From: a virus
Taxonomy: Duplodnaviria > Caudoviricetes
Length of the DNA: 55,792 nt
Virus record (IMG/VR): IMGVR_UViG_3300011339_000921
Coordinates: 1-55,792 of that record
Reading direction: 5' to 3' (one strand)
The translations under genes were made by a program, and so were the position numbers. This document shows, piece by piece, positions 1 through 55,792 of the stretch. The notes under the pieces are model-generated. The model made no database searches. It had not been told where the DNA came from and worked only from the letters and a program-made list of their open reading frames with translations. The stretch's first letter is position 1. Each line of letters starts with the position of its first letter.

Positions 1-328
1 GAAGAGCCTTCGCCTGCAGCGGGAACGACGACTGGTACAGGTTGTCCTTGATCGCCTGACGGGTGATGATGAAGCCGATGCTGGTGTAGCGGTTCACGTA
101 GTTCGTGACGAACCGCTGACCCATTTCACCATAGGCGGTTGAGGCGCCCTCAGCCTTGATCTGGGCCAGACCCAGCAGCTTGACTTCGACTTCGATTTCA
201 ACGGCCTTGTCGGACGTGTGCTTCTCGAAGATCTCCGACCACTGGCCCGGATACATCGGATAGTCGCCGAAAACGGCGGCCAAACCGGGCCGGAGCAGGT
301 CGCGGATTGCGGTGGTATTAATAGCCAT
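1..328 (-). CDS. Major capsid protein (Mu gpT-like family), N-terminal part, truncated by window edge
   Basis: Manual translation MAINTTAIRDLLRPGLAAVFGDY...GFIITRQAIKDNLY; GGGAG RBS upstream; downstream of scaffold and decoration genes. Confidence 0.85.
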   Translation of the reverse strand, partial: MAINTTAIRDLLRPGLAAVFGDYPMYPGQWSEIFEKHTSDKAVEIEVEVKLLGLAQIKAEGASTAYGEMGQRFVTNYVNRYTSIGFIITRQAIKDNLYQSSFPLQAKAL

Positions 329-353
329 TTTTCAAATCTCCCTGCTGGACCGA

Positions 354-950
354 TTAAAGGCCAGTCACCCCACCCTTGTACAGGTGGTTGTTGATGACAA
401 CGAGCCAGTTCGCATAAGCGCCAACAGCGTTACCCGGGGTCGGGTCAAGCTGCAGGATCTTCAGGTTGAGCGTCGAGGTGTCAGCTTCGGTCGCGTTGTT
501 CAGCGACACAGCCGACGTACCCGTCGCCGTTGAACCGGCGGTGTACAGGAAGTTCGCATTCAGGCCGCGGTCGGACAGGGCCAGCGGAGTGCCCGCAGTG
601 CCAGTGCCGCTCGTTTCCTGAATGGTGAACACGGTGTTCGGATCGTCGATCACGAGAGCTTCAACAACCGAGCCGGTGAGAACACCGGGGTTACCCGGCC
701 AGTAGTTCTCGAAACGGACGCGGCCGGTGCTGTCAGTGAACTTGACGCCCCAGAAGACGCCGATGGTGGTTGCACCCGCGACGCCCACGCCAAGCGTGCC
801 ATCGGAGAGAGTGGTGACGGGGTCGCCACGGAAGATCGCAGTCGCATAAGCGTTAGCGATTTGATACGGGTTGGTAGCGCCAGTCCAAGCAGAGCCATCC
901 AGCTTCTTGACGGGGACGAGCCCCTGAGGCGCATTGGTGCCGTAAGCCAT
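354..950 (-). CDS. Putative capsid decoration/minor head protein
   Basis: Start at MAYGTNAPQGLVPV with GGAG RBS; beta-rich Gly/Thr/Ala sequence immediately upstream of the capsid gene. Confidence 0.65.
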   Translation of the reverse strand: MAYGTNAPQGLVPVKKLDGSAWTGATNPYQIANAYATAIFRGDPVTTLSDGTLGVGVAGATTIGVFWGVKFTDSTGRVRFENYWPGNPGVLTGSVVEALVIDDPNTVFTIQETSGTGTAGTPLALSDRGLNANFLYTAGSTATGTSAVSLNNATEADTSTLNLKILQLDPTPGNAVGAYANWLVVINNHLYKGGVTGL

Positions 951-985
951 ACGGTTTCTCCATGCTGAAGTTGAGGGTTGGGTTC

Positions 986-1068
986 TGCCGATACGTAACG
1001 GCAATCGACATTCTATCAGTGGGTACGTGACCACCATCGGGTTGCAGGATACGTGACCTGCGTCGAAT
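986..1068 (-). ncRNA. Structured 5' leader: three tandem stem-loops with conserved UYACGUAY loop
   Basis: GCAGG-UCACGUAU-CCUGC, GUGG-UCACGUAC-CCAC, UGCCG-UUACGUAU-CGGCA, each preceded by YCGAY at the same spacing. Confidence 0.7.
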
Positions 1069-1074
1069 GAGCGT

Positions 1075-1103
1075 AAATTACGCCTACACCGGATAACTGT
1101 CAA
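1075..1103 (-). promoter_or_regulatory. Sigma70-type promoter for the capsid/late operon
   Basis: TTGACA-17 nt-TAATTT. Confidence 0.8.
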
Positions 1104-1111
1104 CAGCACAT

Positions 1112-1145
1112 AAAAAGACCCCCGCCCAGTTTCCCGAGCGGGGGT
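1112..1145 (-). terminator. Intrinsic terminator ending the terminase-portal-scaffold transcript
   Basis: ACCCCCGCUCGG-GAAA-CUGGGCGGGGGU followed by CUUUUU. Confidence 0.85.
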
Positions 1146-1186
1146 AAGTTGCCACAGCGTTGAGAGAACACACTGTGGACCGGAGG

Positions 1187-1666
1187 TTAATCCTTGAAGG
1201 AGGTGACGCGTTCGAACGCCACGCCGCTGTTCTTGTCCTCAAAGCGCGGCAGGTTCGGGTCGTTCTGACCGGTCCATGCCACGTCCTGCAGGGTTTCGAT
1301 GTTTTCCAGATCGCGCTCGCGATTGCGCTCCTCGACTTCGCGAGTCGGGCATTCGCAAAGCATCAGGCCGCCGCGGCGGATGACCATCACTTCGGTGCCC
1401 TCATAGCCCGGAAGCGGAGGCGGAACCATCTCCGGGTGTCGGCCAGCCGGGACAGGCTGCCAGCCGCGGATCATGCGATCGGTCATGTTGTCGGGATCCG
1501 GCTCGTTCAGAGTCGACTCGCGAACCCAAGCGTAGGTCATGCCCGACGGAATTTTATCCTTCGGCACATAGAGCTTGGATTGGAAGTGCGTTTCGGGGCG
1601 CTTGCGCTGCCCGGCTTCACGAGTTTCGGCAGCACGCGTAGTGCTAATGCGAGAAGAACGAGCCAT
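1187..1666 (-). CDS. Head-module hypothetical protein
   Basis: 159-aa ORF with GGAG RBS, between scaffold and capsid genes; YAWVR..GWQPV motif. Confidence 0.7.
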   Translation of the reverse strand: MARSSRISTTRAAETREAGQRKRPETHFQSKLYVPKDKIPSGMTYAWVRESTLNEPDPDNMTDRMIRGWQPVPAGRHPEMVPPPLPGYEGTEVMVIRRGGLMLCECPTREVEERNRERDLENIETLQDVAWTGQNDPNLPRFEDKNSGVAFERVTSFKD

Positions 1667-1668
1667 TG

Positions 1669-2706
1669 TTACGCTCCCTTTCCTGTTTTCATCATGTGAA
1701 TGGCGTAGTATTTTTCAGCTTCCAAGTCGGTCATGCGAGTGCCGTTCGGATTCTTGAACGCGCCTGACTGGCCCATCTGATGCGCCATGCGACGCTGATC
1801 AGCACTCAGGCGAATGCTGGTCGACTTCTTCACCGGCTGCCCCGGAGCGGTACGTTGAACAGGCGCAGCAGTTGAATCACGGCTCATTGGAGGTGCCTTC
1901 TTGGATGGAGTTGACTGTGCCGCGAACGCGTCAGGAAACTCCCGGCGCATATGGCGATCGATCTCCGTGAAGTAGTCGAGGCTGCCAATCTCTTCATCAC
2001 GGCCCTCAGCGCGGAAGCGGCGCTCTACGCGGCGTGCGTAGAGGGTGGCCTCTTCGTGCATCTCAGGATCGAAGTCCTCAGATTTGGGCTGGAACCATGT
2101 GTTCTTCTGGATCCAACCTGCCGTGCGAGGCTCCAACGTCACCTGCTGGCGCTGCGATTCCGCTGGCGCCGCCGGCTGAGCAGGGCGAGCCGCCCTGTTC
2201 TGCTGCTCACGCTCCCAGTTGGTGACCGCTTCAAGGTCGTTCATCGTCTTGTTGAACTGGTACTGAAGATCGTCAATCTTCTCGTTGTCCATCATGGAAC
2301 GAGCTTCGGCGAGCTTCTGCTTCAGGTCCATCGCGGTGACGCTCAGGTTGTTCCTGTAGTGCGTCATCATCGCCTGCTCGGACTGCTCGCGAAGCTGAGC
2401 CTCCTTCTGCAGGCGAGACTCCGCTTCCTGAGCGCGCCGCTCCGCATCGGCCGCCTTGCGGGCAAGCTCGGAAATGCGCTTTTCAGGCGAGCGGCGACGC
2501 TTGGGCGCCTCCTCTTCCTCAGGCTCTTCTTCCTGTTCGGAAGACGCCTCAGGCTCCTCAGGCTGACCTTCCTCAAGCTCGCCTTCCTGCTGCTCGTAGT
2601 CTTCAAGGCTCTCGCCAAGATCGTCTTCCGTGATCTCGATCTCGACGTCCTCAGTGGGGCCGTCGTCGGTATACGGAAGTTCCTGCGATTCTGGATCAAT
2701 AGACAT
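1669..2706 (-). CDS. Putative capsid scaffolding protein
   Basis: Acidic disordered N-terminus, coiled-coil centre, basic C-terminus; GAGGAG RBS before ATG 2706. Confidence 0.7.
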   Translation of the reverse strand: MSIDPESQELPYTDDGPTEDVEIEITEDDLGESLEDYEQQEGELEEGQPEEPEASSEQEEEPEEEEAPKRRRSPEKRISELARKAADAERRAQEAESRLQKEAQLREQSEQAMMTHYRNNLSVTAMDLKQKLAEARSMMDNEKIDDLQYQFNKTMNDLEAVTNWEREQQNRAARPAQPAAPAESQRQQVTLEPRTAGWIQKNTWFQPKSEDFDPEMHEEATLYARRVERRFRAEGRDEEIGSLDYFTEIDRHMRREFPDAFAAQSTPSKKAPPMSRDSTAAPVQRTAPGQPVKKSTSIRLSADQRRMAHQMGQSGAFKNPNGTRMTDLEAEKYYAIHMMKTGKGA

Positions 2707-2716
2707 GCTTAGCTCC

Positions 2717-3175
2717 TCAGAAGTTTCCAGCAAACTTGCCTGACATCACGTCTTCCGGACCGCTGATCACGGCCATCACGCGGTCGTCGGGCAGCAGCGC
2801 CATCGCAACGCCTCGATACGACACCATCGTGGATTCATAGCGCGGGATCAGGATCCAATCGCCGACCTTGCACCAAGGACCGGAACGATCGAACTTTTCG
2901 CCCTGATAGGCTTCGGGCCCGACGGCACACACCAGCGCCGACACCGAACTGTACTTGTCCTCGGCGCGAACGGTGTCCGGCAGGTACAGCGTGACTTCCG
3001 TCCCGTCGTCCTGCTTAATCGTCTTAAGCTCTTCCGGGCGAACGTAAATTTTCACGGCCACGAGATAGCCCGCCGGCTGCATGTCGAACGGCCGCCCCGT
3101 GATGAACGTGAACTCGTCGTCGATCAGCTTCTTGGCCAGAGCCTCTTCATGTGGCTCGATCTTACTCATACTCAT
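2717..3175 (-). CDS. groES: GroES/Cpn10-like co-chaperonin
   Basis: QPAGYLVAV...VCAVGP...CKVGDWILIPRY...DDRVMAVI matches the Cpn10 pattern. Confidence 0.85.
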   Translation of the reverse strand: MSMSKIEPHEEALAKKLIDDEFTFITGRPFDMQPAGYLVAVKIYVRPEELKTIKQDDGTEVTLYLPDTVRAEDKYSSVSALVCAVGPEAYQGEKFDRSGPWCKVGDWILIPRYESTMVSYRGVAMALLPDDRVMAVISGPEDVMSGKFAGNF

Positions 3176-3456
3176 CAGTACATACTCCCTTTTCTGGTCT
3201 CCGGTTTTTTATCGTCGTCTGGCTGCAGCATGCGCTTGTACTCGTCGTTGATGACGCTAATCGCAGCCGTATAAGCGCGCACCAACGCATTACCCTCCAG
3301 AACCTGAAGGGCAATCTCTTCTGCCGTCAGCGCAGGGATGTGCTTCTCCCCGAAGGTTGACGGCCTAAAACGGACATTAAGACTGTATTCGGTCGCGCGA
3401 TCGCGCAGTTCGCCTATGCGTTCAACCACGCGGCGACCGAGTTCCTCGGCTGACAT
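3175..3456 (-). CDS. Hypothetical protein
   Basis: 93-aa ORF coupled to groES, GAGAG RBS. Confidence 0.65.
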   Translation of the reverse strand: MSAEELGRRVVERIGELRDRATEYSLNVRFRPSTFGEKHIPALTAEEIALQVLEGNALVRAYTAAISVINDEYKRMLQPDDDKKPETRKGSMY

Positions 3457-3604
3457 TCACTCTCTCCGGTAGCTTTTTGTAATTCTTGGTCGCAGCGATA
3501 TAGTCTTTGCCAATCTTCTGCGGAATTCTCACGGCCTTCGCAAAGGCAGGGTTGTGCGCGGCTGCACTCATCAAGCGATACTGACGCTTTGATCTTGCTG
3601 GCAC
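3422..3604 (-). CDS. Small basic phage protein
   Basis: MPARSKRQYRLMSAAAHNPAFAK, a type of small basic protein common in head modules; GTG start after GAGGGG. Confidence 0.6.
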   Translation of the reverse strand: MPARSKRQYRLMSAAAHNPAFAKAVRIPQKIGKDYIAATKNYKKLPERVNVSRGTRSPRG

Positions 3605-3618
3605 AGCCGCGCCCCCTC

Positions 3619-5259
3619 TTACTTGCAGCGCATTTTATTCATGGCGTGGGTGATGTTGCCTTCCGGCGTCATCATGCCCTTGCGCACCTTCGCAGCGCCG
3701 CCCTGAGCCTTCTTGATCGGCGCCTGACCCTTGCGCGTCTTGCCAGCGCCGCCAGCCGCGTAGCCCATCGGCTCGCCACCCATAGCCATATCGCGCGTCA
3801 CCTTCGACGCCTCCATGTCCGCTGAGCGCGCAGCCATCGGGCCACCGTTCATCTTCTTGGTGGGCTTCGCCTTGCCGATAGCGATCATGACAGCCAGACC
3901 GTCTTTTGGCTTGGCATCCTTGACCTTGCCGCCCTTGGCGTACTCAGCCCCGGACAAGAAGGAGGCGATCTTGGCCAAGCGAGGGCGGCCCTCTTTCTTG
4001 TACCTATCAACCAGTTCCTGATTGGATTTTTTGTTGGCGGCGCGTTCCCTGTCGAGGACGTTAGCGTACTCGCTGCCAATCTCAGTGTTTCGCAAGCCAA
4101 CACGCGGCGGATTAGGAGGCGGGTTAGACCGAGCGGGCCTTGACGCATCAGCGCCCTTGTCGTTCTCACTCATGAAATTGCGGATCTCAGAGTCCGACAT
4201 GCCTTGGTTAGGCGTGGCAGCCGGGGCAGCGGCGCGAGCCGGTTTAGCCTTTGGCGTTTCGCCCTTCAACTGGGTGCCGTAGCTGCCACCATTCCACGAA
4301 AACGTCTTGTCACCACGCTTCCGCGCTGCAGCAAATGCCTCGCCGAACGACTGCTTCTTCGGAGCGGTTTCCTCGGATTCACGACGGCGCGTGGCCGCGA
4401 GATTGCGGGCCTCCATCACTTTCGTTTCCAGATCAGCCTTCGGCAGCGACATTTTAGGCCGGGACATTTCCTCCAGACCCTTCATGTCGATGTCGACCTG
4501 CTTGACCTTGCCACCCTTCTTGTAGCCGCCCATCTCGGTGGCCAGCTTGCGCGCGGTGTCCGATGACGTCTGGACCTTGCCGCCGTTTTTGAACTGTCGC
4601 GAGTAACCCACGCCAACCGCGCCGCGGCGACCAATGCCGGCGGTCATGCGGCCATCGCCAACGTCAACTGTCGGGCCAGTGTAGCCAGCCGTGCGAGCAA
4701 TCGGCATGCGACCGCGCGGGGCCGGAGCCGGCTCTTCCATCATCGGCGCCGCGCCGCGGCCACCGCCACCGGACGACGGGGCCGGCGGGCCCATGCGGCC
4801 ACCGGTCGTGCCCTGCATGCGGTTCAGATCAACGTCGATGTTCTGCGGGCGACGGCCCTCGACGGTGATTTCTTCAGCCATGCCGCCATCGGCGTACTTG
4901 CCCGCCTTGCCGCCCTTCTTCATCGGCATGCGGCGCATCTCTTCAGCCTCTTGGCGAGACATGCGGTTCCCAGAAGCAGCGCTGGCAGCCGGCGACGGCA
5001 TCGCGCTTTTCTTCTTCTTTTCCATCATGTCCATGAACCGCATCTCGTCGCCTTCCTGCTTCGACATGCGATTCCCAGAAGCAGCACTGGCGGCCGGCGT
5101 GGGCTTCTTCACCGGGCCGCCGACCTTATAGGTCGGGATCGGGCGAGCGTTCGCGCGCTGCTGCAGCGCCTTCGCGCCGTTCGGCTGATTCGGCATGGGC
5201 TCAGCAAACGCCGGGCCGAAAATCGCGCGAGCCTTGGCCCGCAGGTCAGTGTTCTTCAT
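3619..5259 (-). CDS. Basic low-complexity putative internal head protein with repeated xxGG motifs
   Basis: 546 aa, Lys/Met/Gly-rich, about 10 [YFM]xxGG-like motifs; directly after portal with GGAGG RBS. Confidence 0.65.
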   Translation of the reverse strand: MKNTDLRAKARAIFGPAFAEPMPNQPNGAKALQQRANARPIPTYKVGGPVKKPTPAASAASGNRMSKQEGDEMRFMDMMEKKKKSAMPSPAASAASGNRMSRQEAEEMRRMPMKKGGKAGKYADGGMAEEITVEGRRPQNIDVDLNRMQGTTGGRMGPPAPSSGGGGRGAAPMMEEPAPAPRGRMPIARTAGYTGPTVDVGDGRMTAGIGRRGAVGVGYSRQFKNGGKVQTSSDTARKLATEMGGYKKGGKVKQVDIDMKGLEEMSRPKMSLPKADLETKVMEARNLAATRRRESEETAPKKQSFGEAFAAARKRGDKTFSWNGGSYGTQLKGETPKAKPARAAAPAATPNQGMSDSEIRNFMSENDKGADASRPARSNPPPNPPRVGLRNTEIGSEYANVLDRERAANKKSNQELVDRYKKEGRPRLAKIASFLSGAEYAKGGKVKDAKPKDGLAVMIAIGKAKPTKKMNGGPMAARSADMEASKVTRDMAMGGEPMGYAAGGAGKTRKGQAPIKKAQGGAAKVRKGMMTPEGNITHAMNKMRCK

Positions 5260-7604
5260 TGAAAACCTCCAAGGTTCCGCACAGCCTCTGACTGCAGCTT
5301 CATTGCCGCAATCTTCTCTCTCGATGCGCGGTTCGCCGCGTCAGTCTGAGCTTCCATCTGGGCCTTCGCAAGCTCCACCTGAGCATCGCGCTCGTTATCG
5401 GCCTGTTTGATCTGCAGCTTCTGCATCTCGACCTGAGCCATCTGGTCGACCTCAGGCTGCGGCTTATACATCGGCGCCAACTGCTGCATGGCCTGAGCCA
5501 CCATGACGGCCAACTGGTTCTCAATCTCCGGAGGCAGCGGCTGGCCCGGAGGCGGCAGCGGCTGACCCACGATCTGCTCGACCTGCTGACGCATCTTCAG
5601 CGCCAAGTGTTCGTTGATGTGCGCCTGCAAGATCGGGTTGTCCTGTGCAATCGGCGCATGCGCCGCGATGTGCGCGTCGTGATCCTGATACGCGCCCGCT
5701 ATCACCGGCACGCCCACAATCGCGTTCTGGTTCTCCGTCAGCGGATCCAGCGGACGCGGCTTCTCCTTCTCCGGCGCCAGCAGCAATTCAATCTTCTCGT
5801 CCGGGACACCCATCTCGACATACATCTGCCGATACGCTTCCCGCAGATTGTGCTGGTCCGGCTGCTGCGTCGCGAACCGCAGTAATGCCTCGGCCCGCAT
5901 CATCCGCTGGGCCGACGATGAAATGTTCGGATCCGAAACCGGGATCACGTCGATGTTGTTCGCGAAGTCCTCGCGCATGATCGCCGCCATGCCGCCGCGG
6001 ACCGGGAACGGATACGGCTCGTCCGGCAGGTACTTCCCAAACAGATTCGCGATCAGCTTCAGTTCGCGGCTGAACGCCCGGTGGCAACGCTTCAACGTCG
6101 CCGACTGCAGCCGGGTCGCCGCCTCCATCAACGCCACCGTCGTGCCCACAGGCGCGTCCTGACGGCCCTCGCCGACAGCGATCTCAGCCGTGTTTGCCAG
6201 ATTCCGCGCGCCTTCGTAGGTTTCCTTCAGCAGCGCCAGCGAGACCTGCGACGGCTCCTTGTACGGCATCGTCATGATCGCGTTCTGGATCGGTAAGCCG
6301 CCCGTATCGATCTCGCGAAACTCCGTCGGGCCGATCCCGATGTTGTTATCCTCCAGCCGCATGCCCTTCACGCGCAGGCCGCCCGGGAAGTTATTCAGCG
6401 TCCCCGCATCGATCAACTGGCGGCGGATCGACGTGGCCGTCTTCGCCGAATTCCCCAGCAAGTGCGCGTAACCCAGACCGTAGAACCCCACCCCCGGCAT
6501 AAATTTATAGTGCGTAAACATATCTTTACGCTGATACGTCGGATCCGTCTCGTCGTAGTTCCGATAAACCGACAGGACCTTCCGGGTCCCCTCTTCGATC
6601 GTCACAACATACGGCAGCGGGATGCCGTCGTCGTTCTCATACCCCACGAGGTTCAAATCCGCGTACACCTCGTAGATCCGGTACTCTTCCGTGCCCTCAG
6701 CACCCGGTTCCACACCCTGAACGCCGTCCACTTCCGCCTGAATCGGCGTCTGCGAGCTATCATCCGCCTGCGGATCGCCCAGATCGATGTCCCGATACAC
6801 GCCCGCCAACTGCGCCAACCGGAAATTCCGGCGCGTCATCGGCGTTATGTGGCAGAACCGCGGCGATGTCGCCAAATCCGACGTGCCATACGACACCACG
6901 AAGTTATCCGGCAGCACGAAACGGCTCACCGGACGCCCCAACAGCCGATCCTGATACGTCTTCTTAAACGTCGAGCCCACCAGCGGCAGCCAGAACAGCA
7001 TCTGGTCGAATTCTTCGTAGAATTCCGGCGCCAGTTCCGTCAGGTACAGGTTCATGAACTGCTGAACGCGCGACGCCTGTGCATCCAACTGCTCGTTCGC
7101 GACCCCAATCACCTGCGTTTTCACTGGCCCCGACGCCGGCAGCAGTTCACCCGCGGCCACAGCCTGCCAGCGCACCACCGCTTCCGCCATCAGCGGGTCA
7201 TAGACGCCGCACGCACCCTTGAACGGCATCGTGCGCTCTTCAATCTTCAGGCCCATCAGCTTGATGCCCTCAGACATCGTCGCTTCCCAGTCCCCGCGCG
7301 ACTGCTTGTCCTCCTCAACACCACTCAGCAGCGTCTCGCCGAGCGTGTTCAGGTCCATGTCTTTCATGTACAGCGCCAGATTCGCGTCGAACGGCGCAAT
7401 TTCCGGCAGATCGCTCTCAGGCTCGAAATCAATCTCGACCCCGCCGTCGTCCAACTCCGTGAACTCGGCGCCGTCCAGCATCGCCGGGCCCGCATCGTCG
7501 ATCTCAATATCGGCCGCGTCCAACGGCAAATCCACATCCACGCCGCCGATCCCCTCGAACGCAGGGCGGAGCGTATCTTCCAGCGTGGTCGGTCTGCGTG
7601 CCAT
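5256..7604 (-). CDS. Portal protein
   Basis: Size, position after terL, helical composition, GFYGLG motif, Gln-rich C-terminal coiled coil. Confidence 0.85.
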   Translation of the reverse strand: MARRPTTLEDTLRPAFEGIGGVDVDLPLDAADIEIDDAGPAMLDGAEFTELDDGGVEIDFEPESDLPEIAPFDANLALYMKDMDLNTLGETLLSGVEEDKQSRGDWEATMSEGIKLMGLKIEERTMPFKGACGVYDPLMAEAVVRWQAVAAGELLPASGPVKTQVIGVANEQLDAQASRVQQFMNLYLTELAPEFYEEFDQMLFWLPLVGSTFKKTYQDRLLGRPVSRFVLPDNFVVSYGTSDLATSPRFCHITPMTRRNFRLAQLAGVYRDIDLGDPQADDSSQTPIQAEVDGVQGVEPGAEGTEEYRIYEVYADLNLVGYENDDGIPLPYVVTIEEGTRKVLSVYRNYDETDPTYQRKDMFTHYKFMPGVGFYGLGYAHLLGNSAKTATSIRRQLIDAGTLNNFPGGLRVKGMRLEDNNIGIGPTEFREIDTGGLPIQNAIMTMPYKEPSQVSLALLKETYEGARNLANTAEIAVGEGRQDAPVGTTVALMEAATRLQSATLKRCHRAFSRELKLIANLFGKYLPDEPYPFPVRGGMAAIMREDFANNIDVIPVSDPNISSSAQRMMRAEALLRFATQQPDQHNLREAYRQMYVEMGVPDEKIELLLAPEKEKPRPLDPLTENQNAIVGVPVIAGAYQDHDAHIAAHAPIAQDNPILQAHINEHLALKMRQQVEQIVGQPLPPPGQPLPPEIENQLAVMVAQAMQQLAPMYKPQPEVDQMAQVEMQKLQIKQADNERDAQVELAKAQMEAQTDAANRASREKIAAMKLQSEAVRNLGGFQ

Positions 7605-7612
7605 GTCTATCC

Positions 7613-9136
7613 TTACCAATAAAACTCAACACGCTCAAGCGGCGTGTCGTACTTCGCTTCATACGGATCTTCCGTATTCTGCACCCAGCCCGACTGCTTG
7701 ATCCGCAAAAACGCCATCGTCATCGTGTCGACCCAGTCCCGCGAATCCGCCGCAGGAAACTGCACGCACTGCTCCATGAAATCCCGGGCCCACGGCCGCA
7801 ACTGATCATAGCTCGGCTTCATCGCCGGCAGCCATATCCGGCCGTTCTCAATCAGATCCGTCACCAGCCGCACACGCGCAACCTTATCCCCAAACTTATC
7901 CGGGTTAAACGGCGTCGCCACGATCCCCGCACGACCCAGATCCTGTATCAGCATCTGCCCGTTCGCCTTCGCCTCCACCAGCACCGTGTCCGGCGCCCGC
8001 TCCCGCGATGGCTTGATCGGCAGCTTGTAATTGTCGTCCCGGTAATCCGTCGCCATCCGCTGAACCATCCGCCGCAACACCGGCCACTCCGCCCGCTCCC
8101 GCCACGCGCTCAGCAAAATCAGATTCGGAATCCCGTTCTCATCGTCGAACACACCCCACGTCGTCGACGCACTGTACGCCGACGTTTTATTCGCCGTCAG
8201 CGCCGTGTCCCACGCCTGCAGCACATACTTCACATTCGGCGGCTCCGGCGATCGCCACCACTTAAACCACGTCTGATCGATGATTCCACCGCTGTCGACG
8301 ACTGGGTTTTGCTGCCATAGCGATGCCCAGACGCGACTCGTGGTCGCCGGGTTCTTACGGACCCGCTCAAGCTCATCAATTGGAAACGGCTCAGGCCACA
8401 ACGCCTCGCCCGGCTTTCGCCCAATCGCATCATCTTCCCCAGCAATTGCCGGCAGAATTACGCGCTCCCACTTTTCGCCATTGCCATCGCGCTCTGCTTG
8501 ATCCAGCCGCCCCATAAGGTCGCCGAGATGCCAACGTGTGGCTATCAGGATAATAGGCGTGTTTAAGTTCTTCCGCCGAGTGAACATGTCTGCCGCCCAC
8601 CACGCCCACAGCTTGTCACGCTCCCGGTCGCTCTCAGCAGCCTCAATCCCGGAAAGCAAGTCATCACCGATCAGAATATCGCCGCGCCGGCCCGTCACGT
8701 TGGCGCCAGTCGCTGTTGCATGATAGCCGCCGCCTGCCGTCGTCTGCCACTCCCCCGCCGCCGTCTTGTCCCCCGAAACCCGCGAATCCGGGAAGATCCT
8801 CGCGTGCTCATCCGACATGATTGTATTGCGAACCTTACGACCAAAGCTGTCCGACAACTCCTGCTTGTGGGTGGCCGCGATGATCTGCTTCTCAGGGTAT
8901 TTCGCCAGATAATAGGCTGGGAAATAGTGCGATGCGCAATAACTTTTCCCGTGACCGGGAGGCATTGAAATCATTAACCTTTTAATTTCCCCGCGCGCCA
9001 CGGCGTCCAGCTTGTCGCACACGTATTTCATGTGCTTCGGAACCTTCATACCCGAACAATACTCAATGTACTTCTCTAAGGAGACCATCGCCTCCTCACG
9101 GCGCAACAGTTCCTCCAGCAGAGCCTGCTTATCCAT
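7613..9136 (-). CDS. terL: Terminase large subunit
   Basis: Walker A MPPGHGKS, LIGDD Walker B, ATRWH, nuclease AWDTA and DWVD motifs; start MDKQ at 9136 overlaps the HNH stop. Confidence 0.95.
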   Translation of the reverse strand: MDKQALLEELLRREEAMVSLEKYIEYCSGMKVPKHMKYVCDKLDAVARGEIKRLMISMPPGHGKSYCASHYFPAYYLAKYPEKQIIAATHKQELSDSFGRKVRNTIMSDEHARIFPDSRVSGDKTAAGEWQTTAGGGYHATATGANVTGRRGDILIGDDLLSGIEAAESDRERDKLWAWWAADMFTRRKNLNTPIILIATRWHLGDLMGRLDQAERDGNGEKWERVILPAIAGEDDAIGRKPGEALWPEPFPIDELERVRKNPATTSRVWASLWQQNPVVDSGGIIDQTWFKWWRSPEPPNVKYVLQAWDTALTANKTSAYSASTTWGVFDDENGIPNLILLSAWRERAEWPVLRRMVQRMATDYRDDNYKLPIKPSRERAPDTVLVEAKANGQMLIQDLGRAGIVATPFNPDKFGDKVARVRLVTDLIENGRIWLPAMKPSYDQLRPWARDFMEQCVQFPAADSRDWVDTMTMAFLRIKQSGWVQNTEDPYEAKYDTPLERVEFYW

Positions 9137-9647
9137 AACGACGGAACTCTCCGAAATACTCATCAGCGGCGCGGCAATACGCCAGATGCGCCTGATACTC
9201 GTCGTCAAAGCTCCCAAGCCGAATCAGCTGGCCTTCAACCCGAATGGCAGCCCTCCACTTCCGCCAGTTCCGGTCCCACGTCACCCCCTTGTACCCAGAC
9301 GTGCAACCCTCTCGCTTTTTCTGATTGCGGTTATTCTCCATCTTGCTCGCCAACCGCAAATTACAAATCCGATTGTCCGCCGGATCCCCGTTCGCGTGAT
9401 CAATGTCCGCCGTCGGCCACTCCCCATGATGAAGCACCCAGCAGATCCGGTGCGCCTTAAACACCCGCTTCAAAACCTTAACCTGAATCCGACCATCCGG
9501 GCGCGTGCAACCAGCCGGAACATTCATTCGGCCCCTGCCTCCCGGCGGTTTAATCCACCACAGATAACCCGTATCCGCGTCGTAACGCAGCCATTGTCGT
9601 AAATCGGCTGTCGGTATATCACGCTCACTAAGCGTCATCGGAATCAC
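9129..9647 (-). CDS. HNH endonuclease with C-terminal AP2 domain (free-standing homing endonuclease)
   Basis: AHRICW...IDHANGDPADNRICNLR HNH motif; YKGVTW...WRAAI...LGSFDDEYQAHLAY AP2 motif. Confidence 0.9.
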   Translation of the reverse strand: MIPMTLSERDIPTADLRQWLRYDADTGYLWWIKPPGGRGRMNVPAGCTRPDGRIQVKVLKRVFKAHRICWVLHHGEWPTADIDHANGDPADNRICNLRLASKMENNRNQKKREGCTSGYKGVTWDRNWRKWRAAIRVEGQLIRLGSFDDEYQAHLAYCRAADEYFGEFRRYG

Positions 9648-10339: not shown

Positions 10340-10630
10340 CACACTGTAACCTCGCACGTCACCACCCCATTCGGTGCAATAAAATATTATATATGGAACC
10401 ACAGTTAAAAACAAAGGGGGCTGTTTCAGGGGGTGGGGGGTCTGGATATGGCCGGAACGGATTTGGAGGGAAATGTGGGTGAGAGTGGGTATATTTAGGA
10501 TAAAACCCGCCGATCGCCGGGCAAAGTGGGTGGGTGGGGGGTGGAGGGAGCCGCCGGCCCGGCCGCCGGCCGGGAACAGGGCTGCGCCACATCCGCATCT
10601 GGCTGTAACTGCATCCGCTTCTGGCGCTGC
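10340..10630. other. Divergent intergenic region; candidate packaging-initiation (pac) region
   Basis: AT-rich patch, G-tracts and 14-bp imperfect direct repeats immediately upstream of terS. Confidence 0.35.
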
Positions 10631-10718
10631 ATGTTGACGTTTACGGTTGACGCTATTGTTGGTTGCTGTATTGAGGGCGCTGGGCGTTATGCCCGTCTAG
10701 TGGAAAGGAAACAGACGA

Positions 10719-11057
10719 ATGAACAGCCTTAGCAAGTATGCCACCCCCGGCGAAGCCCGCGCAGCCCGTAAACTGGTTCGCGCTGCATTGGCCGACGGTT
10801 GGACAGTTAGCGTCAATGATGGATACGAAACCACCGTTACCCGCTCAAGCAAGGAGCGCGAAATCTTTGACGCTCTCTGCACCACCGGGGAGGACGTTAT
10901 CACAATCCACCTTCCCATCAGCGGCAAGAGCGGTGGCTCGTTCTACCTTATCTATGGGAACAATCCAGACGGGTCTGAACTGTTCAGCGATTACAGCGAC
11001 AATGAAAACTGCGAGCCGCTGGTGAAAGCCGCCTATCGCGTCAAGACAACCATCTAA
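10719..11057 (+). CDS. Early hypothetical protein
   Basis: 112 aa, AAGGA RBS. Confidence 0.75.
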   Translation: MNSLSKYATPGEARAARKLVRAALADGWTVSVNDGYETTVTRSSKEREIFDALCTTGEDVITIHLPISGKSGGSFYLIYGNNPDGSELFSDYSDNENCEPLVKAAYRVKTTI

Positions 11058-11080
11058 CCACATCCCCGGAGGGAATGAAC

Positions 11081-11215
11081 ATGATCGATCGAACCGAAGT
11101 CAGCCGCGCCATGGCGAAGGCCATTGCCTACAAGCAATGCGGGAAACAGAGGGAAGCCGAACAGTGGGCGCGGGAACTGGTGCGCCTGCTGGAGTGTGCG
11201 GATATTCTCCGGTGA
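11081..11215 (+). CDS. Small early protein (44 aa)
   Basis: MIDRTEVSRAMAKAIAYKQCGK...; GGAGG RBS; below ORF-track cutoff. Confidence 0.65.
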   Translation: MIDRTEVSRAMAKAIAYKQCGKQREAEQWARELVRLLECADILR

Positions 11216-11289
11216 TAGAGTCCCGCCTTCACTCCGCGCTGGCGGCTGCCGCGCTCGTTATCGTTCTGGCCGTTCTGGCCGCTATCTGA
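11212..11289 (+). CDS. 25-aa hydrophobic membrane peptide
   Basis: GTGA overlap with previous gene; MIESRLHSALAAAALVIVLAVLAAI. Confidence 0.45.
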   Translation: MIESRLHSALAAAALVIVLAVLAAI

Positions 11290-11300
11290 GAGGACCACCC

Positions 11301-11528
11301 ATGACACGCAAAGACTATGTGATGATCGCTGACGCAATCCGCGGCCTGCTAGCTGATATCGAGCGCGAGTCCGGTCCTATGGCCGTTTGCGATCGTACCC
11401 GCGCTCTCTTGGCCGGGGAGCACCTAGGCGCCCGCCACGCCGCATCGCGCCTCGCTGACACGCTGCGGCAGGATAACCCCCGCTTTGACCGGGTCCGCTT
11501 TATGGCCGCCTGCGGCTTGACCGCTTAA
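11301..11528 (+). CDS. Small early phage protein
   Basis: MTRKDYVMIA...NPRFDRVRFMAACG; GAGGA RBS. Confidence 0.75.
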   Translation: MTRKDYVMIADAIRGLLADIERESGPMAVCDRTRALLAGEHLGARHAASRLADTLRQDNPRFDRVRFMAACGLTA

Positions 11529-11548
11529 TCACACCGGAGGGAACGAGC

Positions 11549-11740
11549 ATGAACACCGCCACCATCACCCTGATACGTCCGCGCTACTGGCAGCATGCCG
11601 CAACGGGCCTGACCATATGGCTGCCATGCGATAAGCGCAGCTTTCGCGTGATAAACCGCGACACTGGCGAGGATTACTCGCCCCGCCGGTTCCGCAGCCT
11701 TAAAACAGCGGCGGCATTCCTAGACCGCTTGACCGCTTAA
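11549..11740 (+). CDS. Early hypothetical protein
   Basis: 63 aa, GGAGG RBS. Confidence 0.65.
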   Translation: MNTATITLIRPRYWQHAATGLTIWLPCDKRSFRVINRDTGEDYSPRRFRSLKTAAAFLDRLTA

Positions 11741-11744
11741 CCCC

Positions 11745-11797
11745 GTGGCGCGTCACATCACATCACATCACGATGTGGCGCGTCACATCCATCACAT
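11745..11797. repeat. Two GTGGCGCGTCACATC copies plus ACATC microrepeats (candidate operator)
   Basis: First copy 11745-11759; second within the dyad GATGTG-GCGCGT-CACATC at 11772-11789. Confidence 0.6.
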
Positions 11798-11816
11798 TAA
11801 AATGGGAGCAACAGAC

Positions 11817-12068
11817 ATGACCACCACCACCACCACCGCCCGCCCGCTTCACGTCATCGCCCGCGATATCCAGCGCGATTGGCTCAAGCCCAACTATGCC
11901 GCTGTCCCCTATCTGGACGCTATGCGGTCGCTGGATAGCATCTCCGATCGCTATTACTACGACTCGGCCGACAGCGTTGTGCGGTATTTCCTATCGAACG
12001 CCACATCATGGCGCGGGGACAAGGCGCGCGAGATTAAGGCGGAGCTTAAGGCCATGCTGGCGCGCTAA
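11817..12068 (+). CDS. Early phage protein
   Basis: RPLHVIARDI...AVPYLDAM...YFLSNATSWRG; GGGAG RBS. Confidence 0.75.
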   Translation: MTTTTTTARPLHVIARDIQRDWLKPNYAAVPYLDAMRSLDSISDRYYYDSADSVVRYFLSNATSWRGDKAREIKAELKAMLAR

Positions 12069-12101
12069 TCCGCACCCCCATCCTTGAAAGGAACTACACC
12101 C

Positions 12102-12359
12102 ATGAAAGCCTATCTTCACTTCGGCGCAGGCACAGAGCCGCGCCAGACCGTCGCCGTCGAACGCAAGGAATCCCCAATGCCGTGGCATGTCGCGGGCCTG
12201 TCCTATACTGCCAGCGGCTACGGAAACCGCATCCCGTCGCGCCATATGGTGCGATGGGAAGGGCGGTGGCGTCGCGTTTATGTCTGCCAGTATAGCAACG
12301 CCGGCACAGCCTATATCGGCAAGCCCGGCGCATGGCTGGCGACTGTCTCTTTCGACTGA
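12102..12359 (+). CDS. Early hypothetical protein
   Basis: ASGYGNRIPS...RWRRVYVCQYSNAGTAYI; AAGGA RBS. Confidence 0.7.
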   Translation: MKAYLHFGAGTEPRQTVAVERKESPMPWHVAGLSYTASGYGNRIPSRHMVRWEGRWRRVYVCQYSNAGTAYIGKPGAWLATVSFD

Positions 12360-12380
12360 TCCACAGCCCCACCCCCACCT

Positions 12381-12410
12381 AGCCCGCCCTAACCCGGCGG
12401 GCTTTTCTTT
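12381..12410 (+). terminator. Intrinsic terminator of the first early operon
   Basis: AGCCCGCC-ctaaccc-GGCGGGCT then TTTCTTT. Confidence 0.8.
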
Positions 12411-12524
12411 GCCCGGCGCCCAGCCGCCACAGCGGCCGCCCAGCGCCGCCCGCGCCTGTCTGGCACCCTGCACACCCCCATTGCCCGGACGCGCTCAGCG
12501 GGCCTTAAAATCGCCCGCCACTAG

Positions 12525-12566
12525 CCCGCCGGAGCCTGTCCCCCGCACCCCGCCGGAGCCTGTCCC
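12525..12566. repeat. 18-bp direct repeat CCCGCCGGAGCCTGTCCC x2
   Basis: 12525-12542 and 12549-12566. Confidence 0.8.
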
Positions 12567-12606
12567 TTGCGTGATTTATCGCCCTGGCCTAATGCTGAAT
12601 ATATCA

Positions 12607-12984
12607 GGCATGAAACACCCTAACCCGCTGATATCACAGTGAAAAAAGGCGTTTTGAAACGGGTTTTTGCGTTTTGAAACAGAGAGTGTTTCACTCCAAG
12701 CCCCTGAAAAATAACGCCTTTTCCTTATATTATTATAAATGAAACGAGATTTAGATATATATAACCCCATGAGGACATGGTGTATTGGTTTTCTAATACA
12801 GGGGGTGTGTGTGTACCCCTATAGGGTTATACCCCTGCGAAAATCGTTTCATTTTCGATTTTGGGCCGAATCCGCCTGTATAATCAATGGCTTAGAGTGA
12901 AACAGCCTCCCGTTTCATCGCCGTTTCACTGTTTCAAAATGCCTGTTTCCTAAATGTTTTCAGGGGCTTAGGCTGTTTCATGCC
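12607..12984. other. Putative replication origin: dyad-symmetric TGAAAC box array around an AT-rich core
   Basis: 11 TGAAAC/GTTTCA boxes; four inverted-repeat pairs share the centre 12795/12796; GC skew switches here. Confidence 0.7.
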
Positions 12985-13137
12985 GTATAAATTAAACCGT
13001 TATATTTTACAGAGCGAAATCAGACACTTAGCCGACGCGACCCGGCTTTGAACCATTTAGTTACGTCCGTTCCGGGCCTATCGGACGAAAGGTCCATTTC
13101 GGTTGTAATTTGGTCCGGATGTGGTGCTGATTTTATG

Positions 13138-13165
13138 TTGCGTAATCGGCTGCTGTATGTATTGT
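13138..13165 (+). promoter_or_regulatory. Putative early promoter
   Basis: TTGCGT-16 nt-TATTGT ahead of the gene cluster starting 13210. Confidence 0.4.
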
Positions 13166-13209
13166 TGCGTGACGGTTCGACGTAAACCGTAGAGGTTAGG
13201 GAGCGTGAT

Positions 13210-13677
13210 ATGTTCACTGGTAACGGGTTCGACACATACGTTTGCGAGGGCGATTCCATCACATGCGAAGTGGACGGGTTCACCGTCACCGCAACTGTGG
13301 TCTGGGACTATGACAAGGGCGCGCCTGATACGGAGATGGACGGCTTTTGGCCGTCACTCGATCCGAAGGACGCGGGCTATATCGGCCCGAAGTCGCCGGC
13401 GACGCTGGCACGGCATATGGCGCGGGCGCGGGCTATCATGGATGCGTGGCTGAACGATGAATGGTTCTGGTGCGGGATTGTGCTGAGCGTATCGCGCGAC
13501 GGCGTTGTGCTGGACAGTCACGCCGCATCGCTCTGGGGCGTTGAGTGCAATTACCCCGTGTTCCGCAAGCGCGACCGGGCAAACGCCTATCTGATCGAAG
13601 TGGCGAATGAACTGTTGGGCGAGGCGCTGGAAGTGGCGCGGGCGCGGGTTCTTAAGATGAGGGAGGCTTTGGCATGA
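13210..13677 (+). CDS. Hypothetical protein
   Basis: 155 aa, GGGAG RBS, ASLWGVE motif. Confidence 0.75.
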   Translation: MFTGNGFDTYVCEGDSITCEVDGFTVTATVVWDYDKGAPDTEMDGFWPSLDPKDAGYIGPKSPATLARHMARARAIMDAWLNDEWFWCGIVLSVSRDGVVLDSHAASLWGVECNYPVFRKRDRANAYLIEVANELLGEALEVARARVLKMREALA

Positions 13678-14405: not shown

Positions 14406-14417
14406 GGGAGAATTATC

Positions 14418-14822
14418 ATGGGTAATCGGGCTGTCATCACCACCGCGCCGTTCAGCGAAAGCAGCGTCGGCATCTATGTACATTGGAACGGCGGGCGCGC
14501 CAGTATCGAGGGATTCCTCAAGGCTTGCCGGGAACTGGGCTACCGTGATCCATCGCTTGATGACGGCTACGCTATGGCGCGCCTCACGCAGGTAATTGGC
14601 CAGTTTTTTGGCGGCGGCACGTCGCTGGGGATTGGCGTTGTGCGTGATCTGGACACCGACAATGGGGACAACGGGACCTACGTCATTGGCGAGGGTTGGG
14701 AGATTGTCGGGCGCCTGCACGTCAATCCGCTGGGCGAGGAGGAAGTCGATCCGGCGAAAACCGACGCCATTGCGGCCGATATTATCGCGAAGGTTCGCGC
14801 TGGCGAGGGGTCGGCGGCATGA
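14418..14822 (+). CDS. Hypothetical phage protein
   Basis: MGNRAVI...IYVHWNGG motif; GGGAG RBS. Confidence 0.75.
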   Translation: MGNRAVITTAPFSESSVGIYVHWNGGRASIEGFLKACRELGYRDPSLDDGYAMARLTQVIGQFFGGGTSLGIGVVRDLDTDNGDNGTYVIGEGWEIVGRLHVNPLGEEEVDPAKTDAIAADIIAKVRAGEGSAA

Positions 14823-16909: not shown

Positions 16910-16921
16910 TTTAGAGGTGAT

Positions 16922-55741: not shown

Positions 55742-55792
55742 TTAGGAAGCGCCCTGCGAGCCCCAGCCTGCGCGGAAGTTCGAGCAGCCGAA
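55742..55792 (-). CDS. Major capsid protein C-terminus (partial)
   Basis: FGCSNFRAGWGSQGAS* resembles the C-terminus of gpT-like capsid proteins. Confidence 0.75.
   Translation of the reverse strand, partial: FGCSNFRAGWGSQGAS

What the first reader, a model, noticed from the sequence alone, without database searches (positions are those of the whole stretch)
986..1068. Triple stem-loop RNA leader with varying stems and a conserved loop at the start of the capsid operon
Seen: directly after a TTGACA-17-TAATTT promoter, itself just downstream of a strong terminator, the transcript reads UCGAC-GCAGG[UCACGUAU]CCUGC, CCGAU-G-GUGG[UCACGUAC]CCAC and UCGAU-UGCCG[UUACGUAU]CGGCA. The three stems differ in sequence yet all pair. 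The 8-nt loop UYACGUAY and a YCGA 6 nt upstream of the loop are conserved. This pattern points to a structure-dependent motif rather than a simple DNA repeat. Inference: a multivalent RNA site for a protein or RNA polymerase. Options are a put/nut-like antiterminator for the long late region, or a capsid-operon autoregulatory operator. The self-complementary ACGU loop core could also form kissing loops. I do not recognise it as a named motif; it is the best candidate for an undescribed system here.
Basis: partly seen in the sequence, partly recalled or inferred. Interest (0 to 1): 0.85.

Follow-up and report, generated by a model that had tools for sequence, protein, structure and literature searches.

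The report
Conserved triple-hairpin leader of phage capsid mRNA
The first 80 bases of the capsid-gene messenger RNA of a freshwater phage carry three copies of a small hairpin whose stem varies freely while its 8-base loop stays fixed; this looks like a new docking site for an unknown RNA-binding factor that controls capsid production.

Summary
On the minus strand, a strong terminator (1145..1118) is followed by TTGACA-17-TAATTT (1103-1098, 1080-1075). Three units follow (1066-1044, 1040-1018, 1008-986). Each unit is YCGAY, a 5-bp stem and the loop UNACGUAY. They lie upstream of a decoration-like head protein (950..354) and the major capsid gene (328..2).

In 76 distinct units from the window and relatives, 88.8% of stem cells pair, against 53.3% in shuffles (0 of 500 reach it). 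All 6 pairs show changes on both sides, and the loop letters U1, A3, C4, G5 and U6 never change.

A covariance model hits only these three sites in the window. In collection-wide scans it hits almost only leaders of this same gene (orthologues of 69-100% identity). It does not hit the loci of 27-55% homologues.

Metatranscriptome contigs include the hairpins and stop near the predicted start. Rfam 15 has no match.

Function is inferred, not shown. The most likely reading (0.42) is a multivalent RNA operator for a conserved, probably host-encoded, factor. A put/nut-like antiterminator, a passive stabiliser and a DNA site remain as rivals. Autoregulation by the acidic decoration or capsid protein looks unlikely.

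The parts
1112..1145 (-). Intrinsic terminator that ends the upstream terminase-portal-head operon. Stem-loop 1145..1118, then a T-run.
   Evidence: 12 pairs, 9 G-C, tail CTTTTTAT. It has the most pairs of any terminator-like site in the scans of the whole window. It is conserved in relatives.
1075..1103 (-). Sigma-70-type promoter: -35 TTGACA 1103-1098, 17-nt spacer, -10 TAATTT 1080-1075. The predicted start is near A1068.
   Evidence: Read. In the 51 distinct upstream sequences of relatives I read a TTGAC(A/G) box and a TA...T-type -10 at the same spacing wherever the 210 nt reach that far (read by eye, not counted). The consensus scanner did not list it, because TAATTT matches only 3 of 6.
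1044..1066 (-). Hairpin unit 1: TCGAC + GCAGG [TCACGTAT] CCTGC.
   Evidence: R1 gives 36.2 bits, E 8.4e-8. It is a predicted hairpin in the centroid fold and in RNAalifold.
1018..1040 (-). Hairpin unit 2: CCGAT + GGTGG [TCACGTAC] CCACT. The outer pair is G.U.
   Evidence: R1 gives 17.3 bits, E 0.016; this is a partial match because its flanks overlap the neighbouring units. Also.
986..1008 (-). Hairpin unit 3: TCGAT + TGCCG [TTACGTAT] CGGCA.
   Evidence: R1 gives 31.1 bits, E 2.2e-6. Also.
958..970 (-). Weak mini-hairpin CUUCA-GCA-UGGAG that holds the Shine-Dalgarno GGAG (961-958).
   Evidence: It is in the MFE fold. The sequence ACTTCAGCATGGAGA, or variants that keep pairing (TTTTA...TGGAG), recurs in relatives. 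This is my reading and was not tested statistically.
354..950 (-). First gene of the operon: a 198-aa all-beta protein, probably a capsid decoration/cement protein.
   Evidence: PHROG 37556, function unknown. AlphaFold2 pLDDT 95.2. The best PDB fold matches are capsid decoration or stabilising proteins: Sf11 9ocb_H (E 0.011, prob 0.98), TW1 5wk1_K and HFTV1 8qsy. These matches are weak. Its homologues sit directly before the annotated capsid gene in HTVC023P and CRP-901.
2..328 (-). Second gene: the major capsid protein, residues 1-109 only. The record breaks inside the gene.
   Evidence: the 301-aa capsid protein of relative L003 matches 328..2 (residues 1-109, 100%) and 55792..55745 (residues 286-301).

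Best explanation
The three hairpins are a real, conserved RNA structure that forms the 5' leader of the decoration/major-capsid mRNA. The unit is a single-stranded YCGAY, a 5-6 bp stem of any sequence closed by G-C, and the 8-nt loop U-N-A-C-G-U-A-Y. It is repeated 2-4 times in relatives.

Most likely each unit is one docking site for a sequence- and shape-specific RNA-binding factor, and the array binds several copies of it. Binding would set the output of the capsid operon after initiation, by protecting or exposing the 5' end or by changing access to the weakly sequestered ribosome-binding site.

The factor should be conserved across the clade. That points to a host protein or a conserved phage protein, not a product of the hypervariable early region. 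It also makes the acidic decoration and capsid proteins unlikely.

Shown: the structure, its conservation, its exclusive link to this leader, and its presence in RNA contigs. Inferred: that a protein binds, and what the binding does.
For: Structure:
- In 76 distinct units, 88.8% of stem cells pair against 53.3% in shuffles (0 of 500 reach it) and 31-58% when partners are slid. All 6 pairs show changes on both sides.
- There are 26 different 5-bp stem combinations. The loop letters U1, A3, C4, G5 and U6 are invariant, and the closing pair is G-C in 71 of 76.
- RNAalifold finds the three hairpins on its own in 11 orthologous leaders.

Specificity:
- R1 hits only the three sites in the window.
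- In five 78-100% complete relatives, 13 of its 14 hits are leader sites; the other is a weak hit (E 0.03) elsewhere.
- 79 of 80 close loci have hits, all on the gene's strand. The model was built from these loci. The one miss, L046, has only 29 nt of upstream sequence.
- Loci not used in training were also found (L086, L095, L296, L305 and 15 metagenome loci). All lie directly before the same gene.

RNA level:
- The promoter is conserved, and the first YCGAY starts 7-10 nt after the -10 in the 19 leaders I measured by eye.
- G.U outnumbers A.C by 15 to 3 in the inner 5 pairs.
- YCGAY occurs on the 5' side only.
- Metatranscriptome contigs of a relative run from the coding region through the hairpins. 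In 2 of 4 runs they end 71-72 nt past window position 1007, about 16 nt after the -10 if the contig is like L003. Upstream genes appear only as separate contigs.

Constraint on the factor: most early-region ORFs (about 10.6-18.9 kb) have no match in relatives G001-G003, and only the 74-aa ORF at 18908-19132 is well matched in all three, while the loop is invariant.
Against: - No binding protein was identified. Pfam scans of 47 distinct window proteins and PHROG scans of 20 gave no RNA-binding domain.
- The last hairpin ends 23-45 nt before the Shine-Dalgarno and that distance varies (my reading). Simple occlusion of the ribosome site is therefore not evident.
- The leader is not unusually stable (z 0.20).
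- Contigs cannot prove a transcript start, and DNA carry-over in RNA libraries cannot be excluded.
- The G.U excess is modest, and the units are related by descent.
- Sense-strand single-stranded DNA would give the same sequence signals.
Confidence: 0.42

Rival explanations
1. Polymerase-acting leader (put- or nut-like). The nascent hairpins, alone or with host Nus-type factors, modify host RNA polymerase just after promoter escape, so that it transcribes the very long late region without stopping, for example against Rho.
For: - The first unit sits at a nearly fixed distance from the promoter (7-10 nt after the -10), while the distance to the ribosome site varies.
- The element occurs once per genome, at the head of what seems to be a late region of 27 kb or more on the same strand. 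The capsid gene is split across the record ends (ORF list).
- A mechanism that needs no phage-specific protein fits the hypervariable early region.
Against: - No good intrinsic terminator lies on the minus strand of 28.9-55.8 kb. There were 6 terminator-like sites on both strands in 36-55.8 kb against 17.0 expected, and both minus-strand ones are weak. None lies at 28.9-36 kb on the minus strand. Nothing shows a need for antitermination, and Rho sites cannot be judged here.
- As I recall them, put has two larger stems and nut boxB has a 5-nt loop with a boxA. Neither fits.
- No Rfam match.
Confidence: 0.18
2. RNA-only element. The hairpins act passively as 5' stabilisers of the most abundant late mRNA, or their self-complementary ACGU loops kiss within or between molecules to compact or dimerise the leader.
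For: - The hairpins sit at the extreme 5' end of the mRNA.
- The invariant loop core ACGU is a palindrome, and UUACGUAY loops (16 of 76) would give a 6-bp palindrome.
Against: - About 7 unpaired bases precede the first stem if the start is near 1068. As I recall, that is not the architecture of a 5'-terminal protective stem.
- A passive stabiliser would not need an invariant loop or a conserved YCGAY.
- Loop position 2 is C in 50 of 76 units, which limits kissing to 4 bp.
- The leader is not unusually stable.
Confidence: 0.12
3. High-copy decoy. The abundant capsid mRNA uses three sites per molecule to soak up a host RNA-binding protein or nuclease, such as a defence or global regulator, so the benefit goes to the phage as a whole and not to this operon.
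For: - The array is multivalent, and the copy number changes (2-4) through recent duplication of whole units (47-nt repeats in L020 and L035).
- It sits on a transcript whose contigs have the highest depth among those laid. The tool warns that depth cannot rank genes.
- The trans factor seems not to be encoded in the early region.
Against: - There is no direct evidence.
- No similar hairpins were found in bacterial genomes outside phage-like contigs, so no host RNA that it would mimic is known.
- A decoy would not need a fixed position at the mRNA start.
Confidence: 0.08
4. DNA-level element. The inverted repeats act as double-stranded operators at +1 to +80 for a repressor, or as extruded or single-stranded DNA hairpins, as in a hairpin promoter or an origin.
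For: - The units lie from about +3 to +83 of a strong promoter, where repressors can act.
- The loop core is a DNA palindrome.
- Non-template DNA has the same sequence as the RNA, so sequence analysis cannot exclude it.
Against: - A protein that reads duplex DNA does not explain stems that change sequence but keep pairing.
- Wobble pairs favour one strand (15 G.U against 3 A.C).
- The YCGAY flank is on one side only.
- 5-bp stems with 8-nt loops are poor candidates for cruciform extrusion (general knowledge).
- No RNA polymerase domain was found in any of the 47 proteins scanned, including the 1923-aa protein.
Confidence: 0.08

Closest known systems
Lambdoid nut sites (boxA + boxB bound by N and Nus factors); features recalled, not fetched
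   Same: A short linear motif followed by a 5-bp hairpin in the nascent leader just after a promoter. The hairpin is read by its loop and shape, and the stem sequence is free.
   Different: The loop is 8 nt here, not the 5-nt GNRA-like loop. There are three tandem copies, not one. YCGAY is not the boxA consensus. It heads a late structural operon, not an early one. No N-like protein was found. No Rfam match.
HK022 put RNA (cis-acting antiterminator RNA); features recalled
   Same: Tandem stem-loops near a phage promoter that need no phage protein. This would fit the hypervariable early region.
   Different: put is two larger, imperfect stems without a repeated conserved loop. Here there are 2-4 small identical-type units, and no terminators to overcome were seen.
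T4 gene 43 translational operator (hairpin with 5-bp stem and 8-nt loop, bound by T4 DNA polymerase); recalled
   Same: The same hairpin geometry (5-bp stem, 8-nt loop), with sequence-specific reading of the loop by a protein that controls translation of a phage mRNA.
   Different: The T4 operator is a single copy that abuts the Shine-Dalgarno and is autogenous. Here there are three copies, the last one 23-45 nt from the ribosome site, and the operon's first two products are acidic.
N4 early promoters (DNA hairpins read by the virion RNA polymerase); recalled
   Same: Three hairpins with conserved loop features and variable stems at the start of a phage transcription unit.
   Different: N4 hairpins have 3-nt loops, are the promoter itself, and need a phage polymerase. 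Here a sigma-70-type promoter lies upstream and no polymerase gene was detected.
CsrA/RsmA-type multivalent hairpin arrays (GGA loops in leaders and sponge RNAs); recalled
   Same: Several short hairpins present the same loop motif to a protein, in a 5' leader or a decoy RNA.
   Different: The loop motif is UNACGUAY with no GGA, and a 5' YCGAY element is part of the unit.

Membership tests
Any Rfam 15 family | A match to a curated covariance model | tested here: not met
   cmscan at E up to 10 was run on window 1-6000, on window 930-1160 alone and on a longer relative leader, L050 2540-2770. Hits fall only on the upstream terminator; none falls on the hairpins.
Lambdoid nut (boxA-boxB) | boxB: a 5-bp stem with a 5-nt GNRA-like loop | tested here: not met
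   Loops are 8 nt (9 nt in 4 of 76 units) with consensus UNACGUAY. The boxB definition is recalled.
Lambdoid nut (boxA-boxB) | A boxA element upstream of the hairpin and an N-type arginine-rich protein in the phage | tested here: inconclusive
   The linear element is YCGAY, directly against the stem, and it does not resemble boxA as I recall it. No N-like family appeared in Pfam or PHROG scans, but small arginine-rich peptides would be missed.
HK022 put | Two long imperfect stem-loops that act on RNA polymerase, with read-through of downstream terminators | tested here: inconclusive
   The architecture differs (short 5-bp units). No strong downstream terminators were seen. Action on polymerase cannot be tested with these tools.
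Translational operator overlapping the ribosome-binding site (T4 gp43 / MS2 type) | The hairpin includes or abuts the Shine-Dalgarno or the start codon | tested here: not met
   Unit 3 ends at 986 and GGAG is at 961-958. In relatives the gap is 23-45 nt and variable (my reading).
N4-type hairpin promoter | A phage-encoded RNA polymerase and 3-nt-loop hairpins upstream of the start | tested here: not met
   No polymerase domain was found in the 47 proteins scanned. The 1923-aa protein shows only LPD38. The hairpins lie downstream of a sigma-70-type promoter.
Type III toxin-antitoxin RNA repeats (ToxI-like) | Near-identical direct repeats followed by an endoribonuclease toxin gene | tested here: not met
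   Stems differ between units. The downstream gene is a decoration-like head protein followed by the capsid gene.
Intrinsic terminator / attenuator | A G+C-rich stem followed by a U-run | tested here: not met
   No T-run follows any of the three hairpins. The scanner lists only the upstream terminator.

The most novel reading that the evidence does not exclude
The array is a new kind of phage leader RNA that needs no phage-specific protein. Its repeated YCGAY-hairpin units capture a conserved host machine (RNA polymerase with Nus-type factors, or the degradosome or ribosome) at the very 5' end of the late transcript. This would make transcription of the 27-kb-plus late region processive, or shield the transcript. 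It would be a put-like solution with an unrelated, modular architecture that evolves by unit duplication.
Probability: 0.2. Interest if true: 0.8.

Novelty: new variant of a known kind. Interest (0 to 1): 0.6.

Why it matters
Little is known about how phages that lack their own RNA polymerase time and scale capsid production. The relatives of this phage are common in lake metagenomes and metatranscriptomes.

This motif is small and modular, has strong covariation, and has a single clear genomic address. It can be tested directly with reporter fusions, compensatory mutants and RNA pull-downs. Such tests could reveal a new RNA-protein recognition pair or a new way of modifying host polymerase. 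It is also a candidate new entry for RNA family databases.

Tried and rejected
- Energy: the leader folds no better than shuffles, so thermodynamic stability was dropped as an argument.
- Motif count: the count of TYACGTAY in the window is not above chance by itself.
- Pseudoknot: I looked by eye for pairing between YCGAY and the loop. At most 2 bp are possible, so I rejected it.
- Leader peptide: the ATG at 1011 is not conserved in relatives, so I rejected it.
- 16S complementarity, tRNA anticodon-loop mimicry and T-loop mimicry of the loop or of YCGAY: considered from memory only. None fits the invariant positions. Not pursued.
- Restriction-site or DNA-binding-site readings of the ACGT core: no support.
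- Distant homologues: 84 loci with 27-55% identical homologues, plus the HTVC023P and CRP-901 loci, carry no motif. R1 gives only three hits, at E 0.34-0.72, all downstream of the gene. These loci mostly have short intergenic spacers.
- Loose three-loop pattern in viral contigs: mostly chance matches. Only 4 of 78 new loci had R1 hits. Two of these (L138, L159) are contigs already held as L002 and L020, and two (L086, L095) are new.
- Tighter pattern in bacterial genomes: 22 stretches. 2 had strong R1 hits; both are short phage-like contigs in bins labelled Actinomycetota and Alphaproteobacteria, so they give no host clue. L304 and L285 had one weak hit each (E 0.048 and 0.066) and no decoration homologue.
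- Tighter pattern in metagenomes: the one R1 hit without the gene (L389) is a 10-nt tandem repeat.
- Literature: six 8-mer loop strings are held by 1,486 papers; the 15 listed are unrelated by title and abstract start. A concept search found 2 papers, neither relevant by title and abstract start. For the HTVC023P and CRP-901 papers I saw the listing only. I read no paper, and supplements were not consulted.
- Phage collection: blastn of window 1-3500 found nothing.
- Depths are not used to rank genes, and parts of the stretch without cover are not used as evidence.

Full report
WHAT IS THERE. The window is a 55,792-base virus record, classed as linear and estimated complete. All parts of the finding lie on the minus strand.
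- The gene row runs terminase large subunit (9217..7613), portal (7619..5256), a GroES-like protein (3175..2717), a 354-aa protein and a 159-aa protein.
- It ends at a terminator-like stem-loop, 1145..1118, with 12 pairs (9 G-C) and a T-run. No other terminator-like site in the window has as many pairs.
- The promoter follows: TTGACA (1103-1098), 17 nt, TAATTT (1080-1075).
- Three units follow, at 1066-1044, 1040-1018 and 1008-986. Each is YCGAY, a 5-nt stem arm, an 8-nt loop (TCACGTAT, TCACGTAC, TTACGTAT) and the complementary arm.
- GGAG is at 961-958 and the ATG at 950.

THE GENES BEHIND IT.
- The 198-aa product (950..354) belongs to a large family: 2,593 representative clusters at E up to 0.001.
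- It folds with pLDDT 95.2 as an all-beta protein.
- Its best PDB fold matches are capsid decoration or stabilising proteins: Sf11 9ocb_H (E 0.011, prob 0.98, TM 0.38-0.46), TW1 5wk1_K and HFTV1. These matches are weak.
- In Pelagibacter phage HTVC023P and Roseobacter phage CRP-901 its 35-37% identical homologues lie directly before the annotated capsid or head protein, in the same order after a GroES gene.
- The next window gene (328..2) is the first 109 residues of the major capsid protein. Residues 286-301 are at the other end of the record.

'Start of the capsid operon' is therefore right.

MORE THAN CHANCE.
- TYACGTAY occurs three times in the window, all here and all on one strand. The count alone is as expected (2.58).
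- The 131-nt leader is not more stable than shuffles (z 0.20).
- The weight comes from comparison. 80 loci with 81-97% identical decoration genes were fetched.
- 74 of the 80 have two or more exact TYACGTAY within 210 nt upstream. 4 have one, and three of those four hold 122 nt or less of upstream sequence. 2 have none: L046 holds only 29 nt, and L008 has TAACGTAY-type variants.
- I aligned 76 distinct units, 3 from the window and 73 from relatives, without gaps.
- For the 6-pair stem, 88.8% of 456 cells pair, against 53.3% (sd 1.9) in shuffles; 0 of 500 shuffles reach it. When partners are slid by 1-3 columns, 31-58% pair. All 6 pairs show changes on both sides. The covariation score is 0.820 against 0.214.
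- There are 26 different 5-bp stem combinations. The loop letters U1, A3, C4, G5 and U6 never change, A7 is kept in at least 90%, and the closing pair is G-C in 71 of 76.
- RNAalifold on 11 orthologous leaders predicts the three hairpins independently; 4 of its 19 pairs have compensatory changes.

SPECIFICITY AND SPREAD. I built covariance model R1 from the units.
- In the window it finds the three sites (E 8.4e-8, 2.2e-6, 0.016), and the next hit has E 0.69.
- In five relatives that are 78-100% complete, 13 of its 14 hits at E up to 1 are leader sites. The other is one hit at E 0.03 elsewhere.
- In the 80 close loci (417 kb, both strands) all 160 hits are on the gene's strand, and 79 of 80 loci have at least one. 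These loci trained the model, so the hits are expected. The absence of hits elsewhere in them is informative.
- Motif-first scans were independent of the gene. In viral contigs, 4 of 78 new loci had R1 hits. Two (L138, L159) are contigs already held as L002 and L020, and two (L086, L095) are new. I read the new two, and both lie before the same gene.
- In one genome per bacterial species there were 22 stretches. 2 had strong hits, and both are short contigs carrying the same gene at 82-84% identity.
16 had hits, and 15 of these lie directly before the same gene at 69-100% identity. The last one is a simple 10-nt tandem repeat.
- 84 loci with 27-55% identical homologues, plus the HTVC023P and CRP-901 loci, have no credible hit.

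The element is an innovation of one clade, found once per genome, always in this leader.

RNA OR DNA.
- I read TTGAC(A/G), a 17-nt spacer and a TA...T-type -10 in the relatives wherever the 210 nt reach that far. In the 19 leaders I measured by eye, the first YCGAY begins 7-10 nt after the -10, that is at about +1 to +3.
- In the inner five pairs, G.U outnumbers A.C by 15 to 3. This favours the sense strand, but the units are related by descent.
- The conserved YCGAY lies only on the 5' side.
- I laid contigs from four lake metatranscriptome runs at 80% likeness. In each run one relative's contig (2.3-2.9 kb) covers window 1-1007, runs on into its own leader and ends 71-72 nt further (2 runs) or 7 nt further (2 runs). 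The visible loose end is hairpin 2 of the L003-type leader.
- If the unseen part of the contig is like L003, the long contigs end 16 nt after the -10, inside the 5' arm of hairpin 1. The genes upstream appear only as separate short contigs.
- Contigs cannot prove a start, and the four studies may be one campaign. I count this as a weak hint that the hairpins are transcribed with the coding region and that transcripts do not come from upstream.

WHO COULD BIND.
- No phage RNA polymerase or RNA-binding domain was found in 47 distinct window proteins scanned with Pfam or in 20 scanned with PHROGs.
- Most early-region ORFs (about 10.6-18.9 kb) have no match in G001-G003, and only the 74-aa ORF at 18908-19132 is well matched in all three, although the loop is invariant across them.
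- The decoration protein (pI 4.7) and the capsid protein (pI 5.5) are acidic.
- A conserved trans factor is therefore more likely host-encoded, or one of the conserved phage proteins. Alternatively the RNA acts on a host machine by itself.

HOW IT MOST LIKELY WORKS. This part is inference.
- The unit has a free stem, a fixed closing pair, a nearly invariant 8-nt loop and an adjacent single-stranded motif. This is typical of a site read by a protein.
- Repetition (2-4 units, with recent unit duplications in L020 and L035) suggests multivalent or cooperative binding.
- I put 0.42 on a protein-binding operator that sets mRNA stability or translation of the capsid operon. A weak hairpin, CUUCA-GCA-UGGAG, holds the Shine-Dalgarno and could be part of this.
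- The fixed distance to the promoter and the variable distance to the ribosome site also fit a polymerase-acting, put/nut-like element (0.18). However, terminator-like sites are scarce in the late region (6 found against 17.0 expected in 36-55.8 kb).
- A passive stabiliser or kissing-loop reading (0.12) is weakened by the roughly 7 unpaired 5' bases and by C at loop position 2 in 50 of 76 units.
- A decoy for a host RNA-binding protein (0.08) and a DNA-level site (0.08) remain possible.

KNOWN RELATIVES.
- No Rfam 15 family matches.
- From memory, the nearest analogues are lambdoid nut (boxA plus a 5-bp boxB hairpin), HK022 put, the T4 gene 43 operator (5-bp stem, 8-nt loop), the N4 hairpin promoters and CsrA-type hairpin arrays. 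Each shares one aspect, and each fails at least one defining feature (see Membership tests).
- My literature searches showed nothing on this motif, but they covered listings only.

VERDICT. This is a real, strongly supported and apparently undescribed structured leader motif of a clade of freshwater podophage-like viruses distantly related to the HTVC023P and CRP-901 types. Its function is not shown. Interest is moderate to high for RNA biology and phage gene regulation (0.6).

LIMITS. There is no cultured phage-host pair, no raw-read 5' ends and no binding data. The units share ancestry, so the shuffle controls overstate independence; the slid-partner control and the many different stems answer this in part.

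Noticed in passing
window 2-328 and 55745-55792 (minus strand): The major capsid gene is split by the record ends. Residues 1-109 are at 328..2 and residues 286-301 at 55792..55745, and about 176 residues in between are absent. The 'complete linear' record is therefore a permuted assembly with a gap of about 0.5 kb inside the capsid gene.
   Followed up: partly
leaders of relatives, e.g. L002 1614-1640, L036 2840-2860 and 2885-2915, L050 2666-2740: Many relatives carry extra conserved small hairpins between and after the motif units: UGAGC-AUGGNNG-GCUCA, CGGC-GGGUA-GCCG and GGC-RGGUNAMA-GCC. The window lacks them. Leaders range from about 115 to 175 nt. These were read by eye and not tested.
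   Followed up: no
window 958-970 (minus strand): A weak hairpin, CUUCA-GCA-UGGAG, encloses the Shine-Dalgarno. Variants in relatives (UUUUA...UGGAG, CUUUA...UGGAG) keep the pairing through wobbles.
   Followed up: partly
window about 10600-18900 (plus strand): The early region is hypervariable. Most of its ORFs have no match in three relatives that share 72-96% identical head genes.
   Followed up: partly
window 16280-16909 (+): A 209-aa protein carries an Nmad5 domain (nucleotide modification associated, E 2e-10). This hints at DNA or nucleotide modification by this phage.
   Followed up: no
window 9129-9647 (-): An HNH endonuclease gene (PHROG 99, E 1.5e-60) lies directly upstream of, and overlaps, the terminase large subunit gene.
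   Followed up: no
window 28897-34668 (-): A 1923-aa protein has an LPD38 'large polyvalent protein' domain near its C-terminus (E 2.6e-32). No polymerase domain was detected.
   Followed up: no
L296 and L305 (bacterial genome collection): Two short contigs (4.9 and 3.2 kb) carry this phage's leader and decoration gene. They sit in bins labelled Alphaproteobacteria and Actinomycetota. They are probably phage contigs binned with bacteria and give no reliable host clue.
   Followed up: partly
L389 1380-1780 (metagenome contig): A long tandem array of a 10-nt unit (CGTCACGTAC-like) matched the search pattern by chance. It is unrelated to the hairpin motif.
   Followed up: partly
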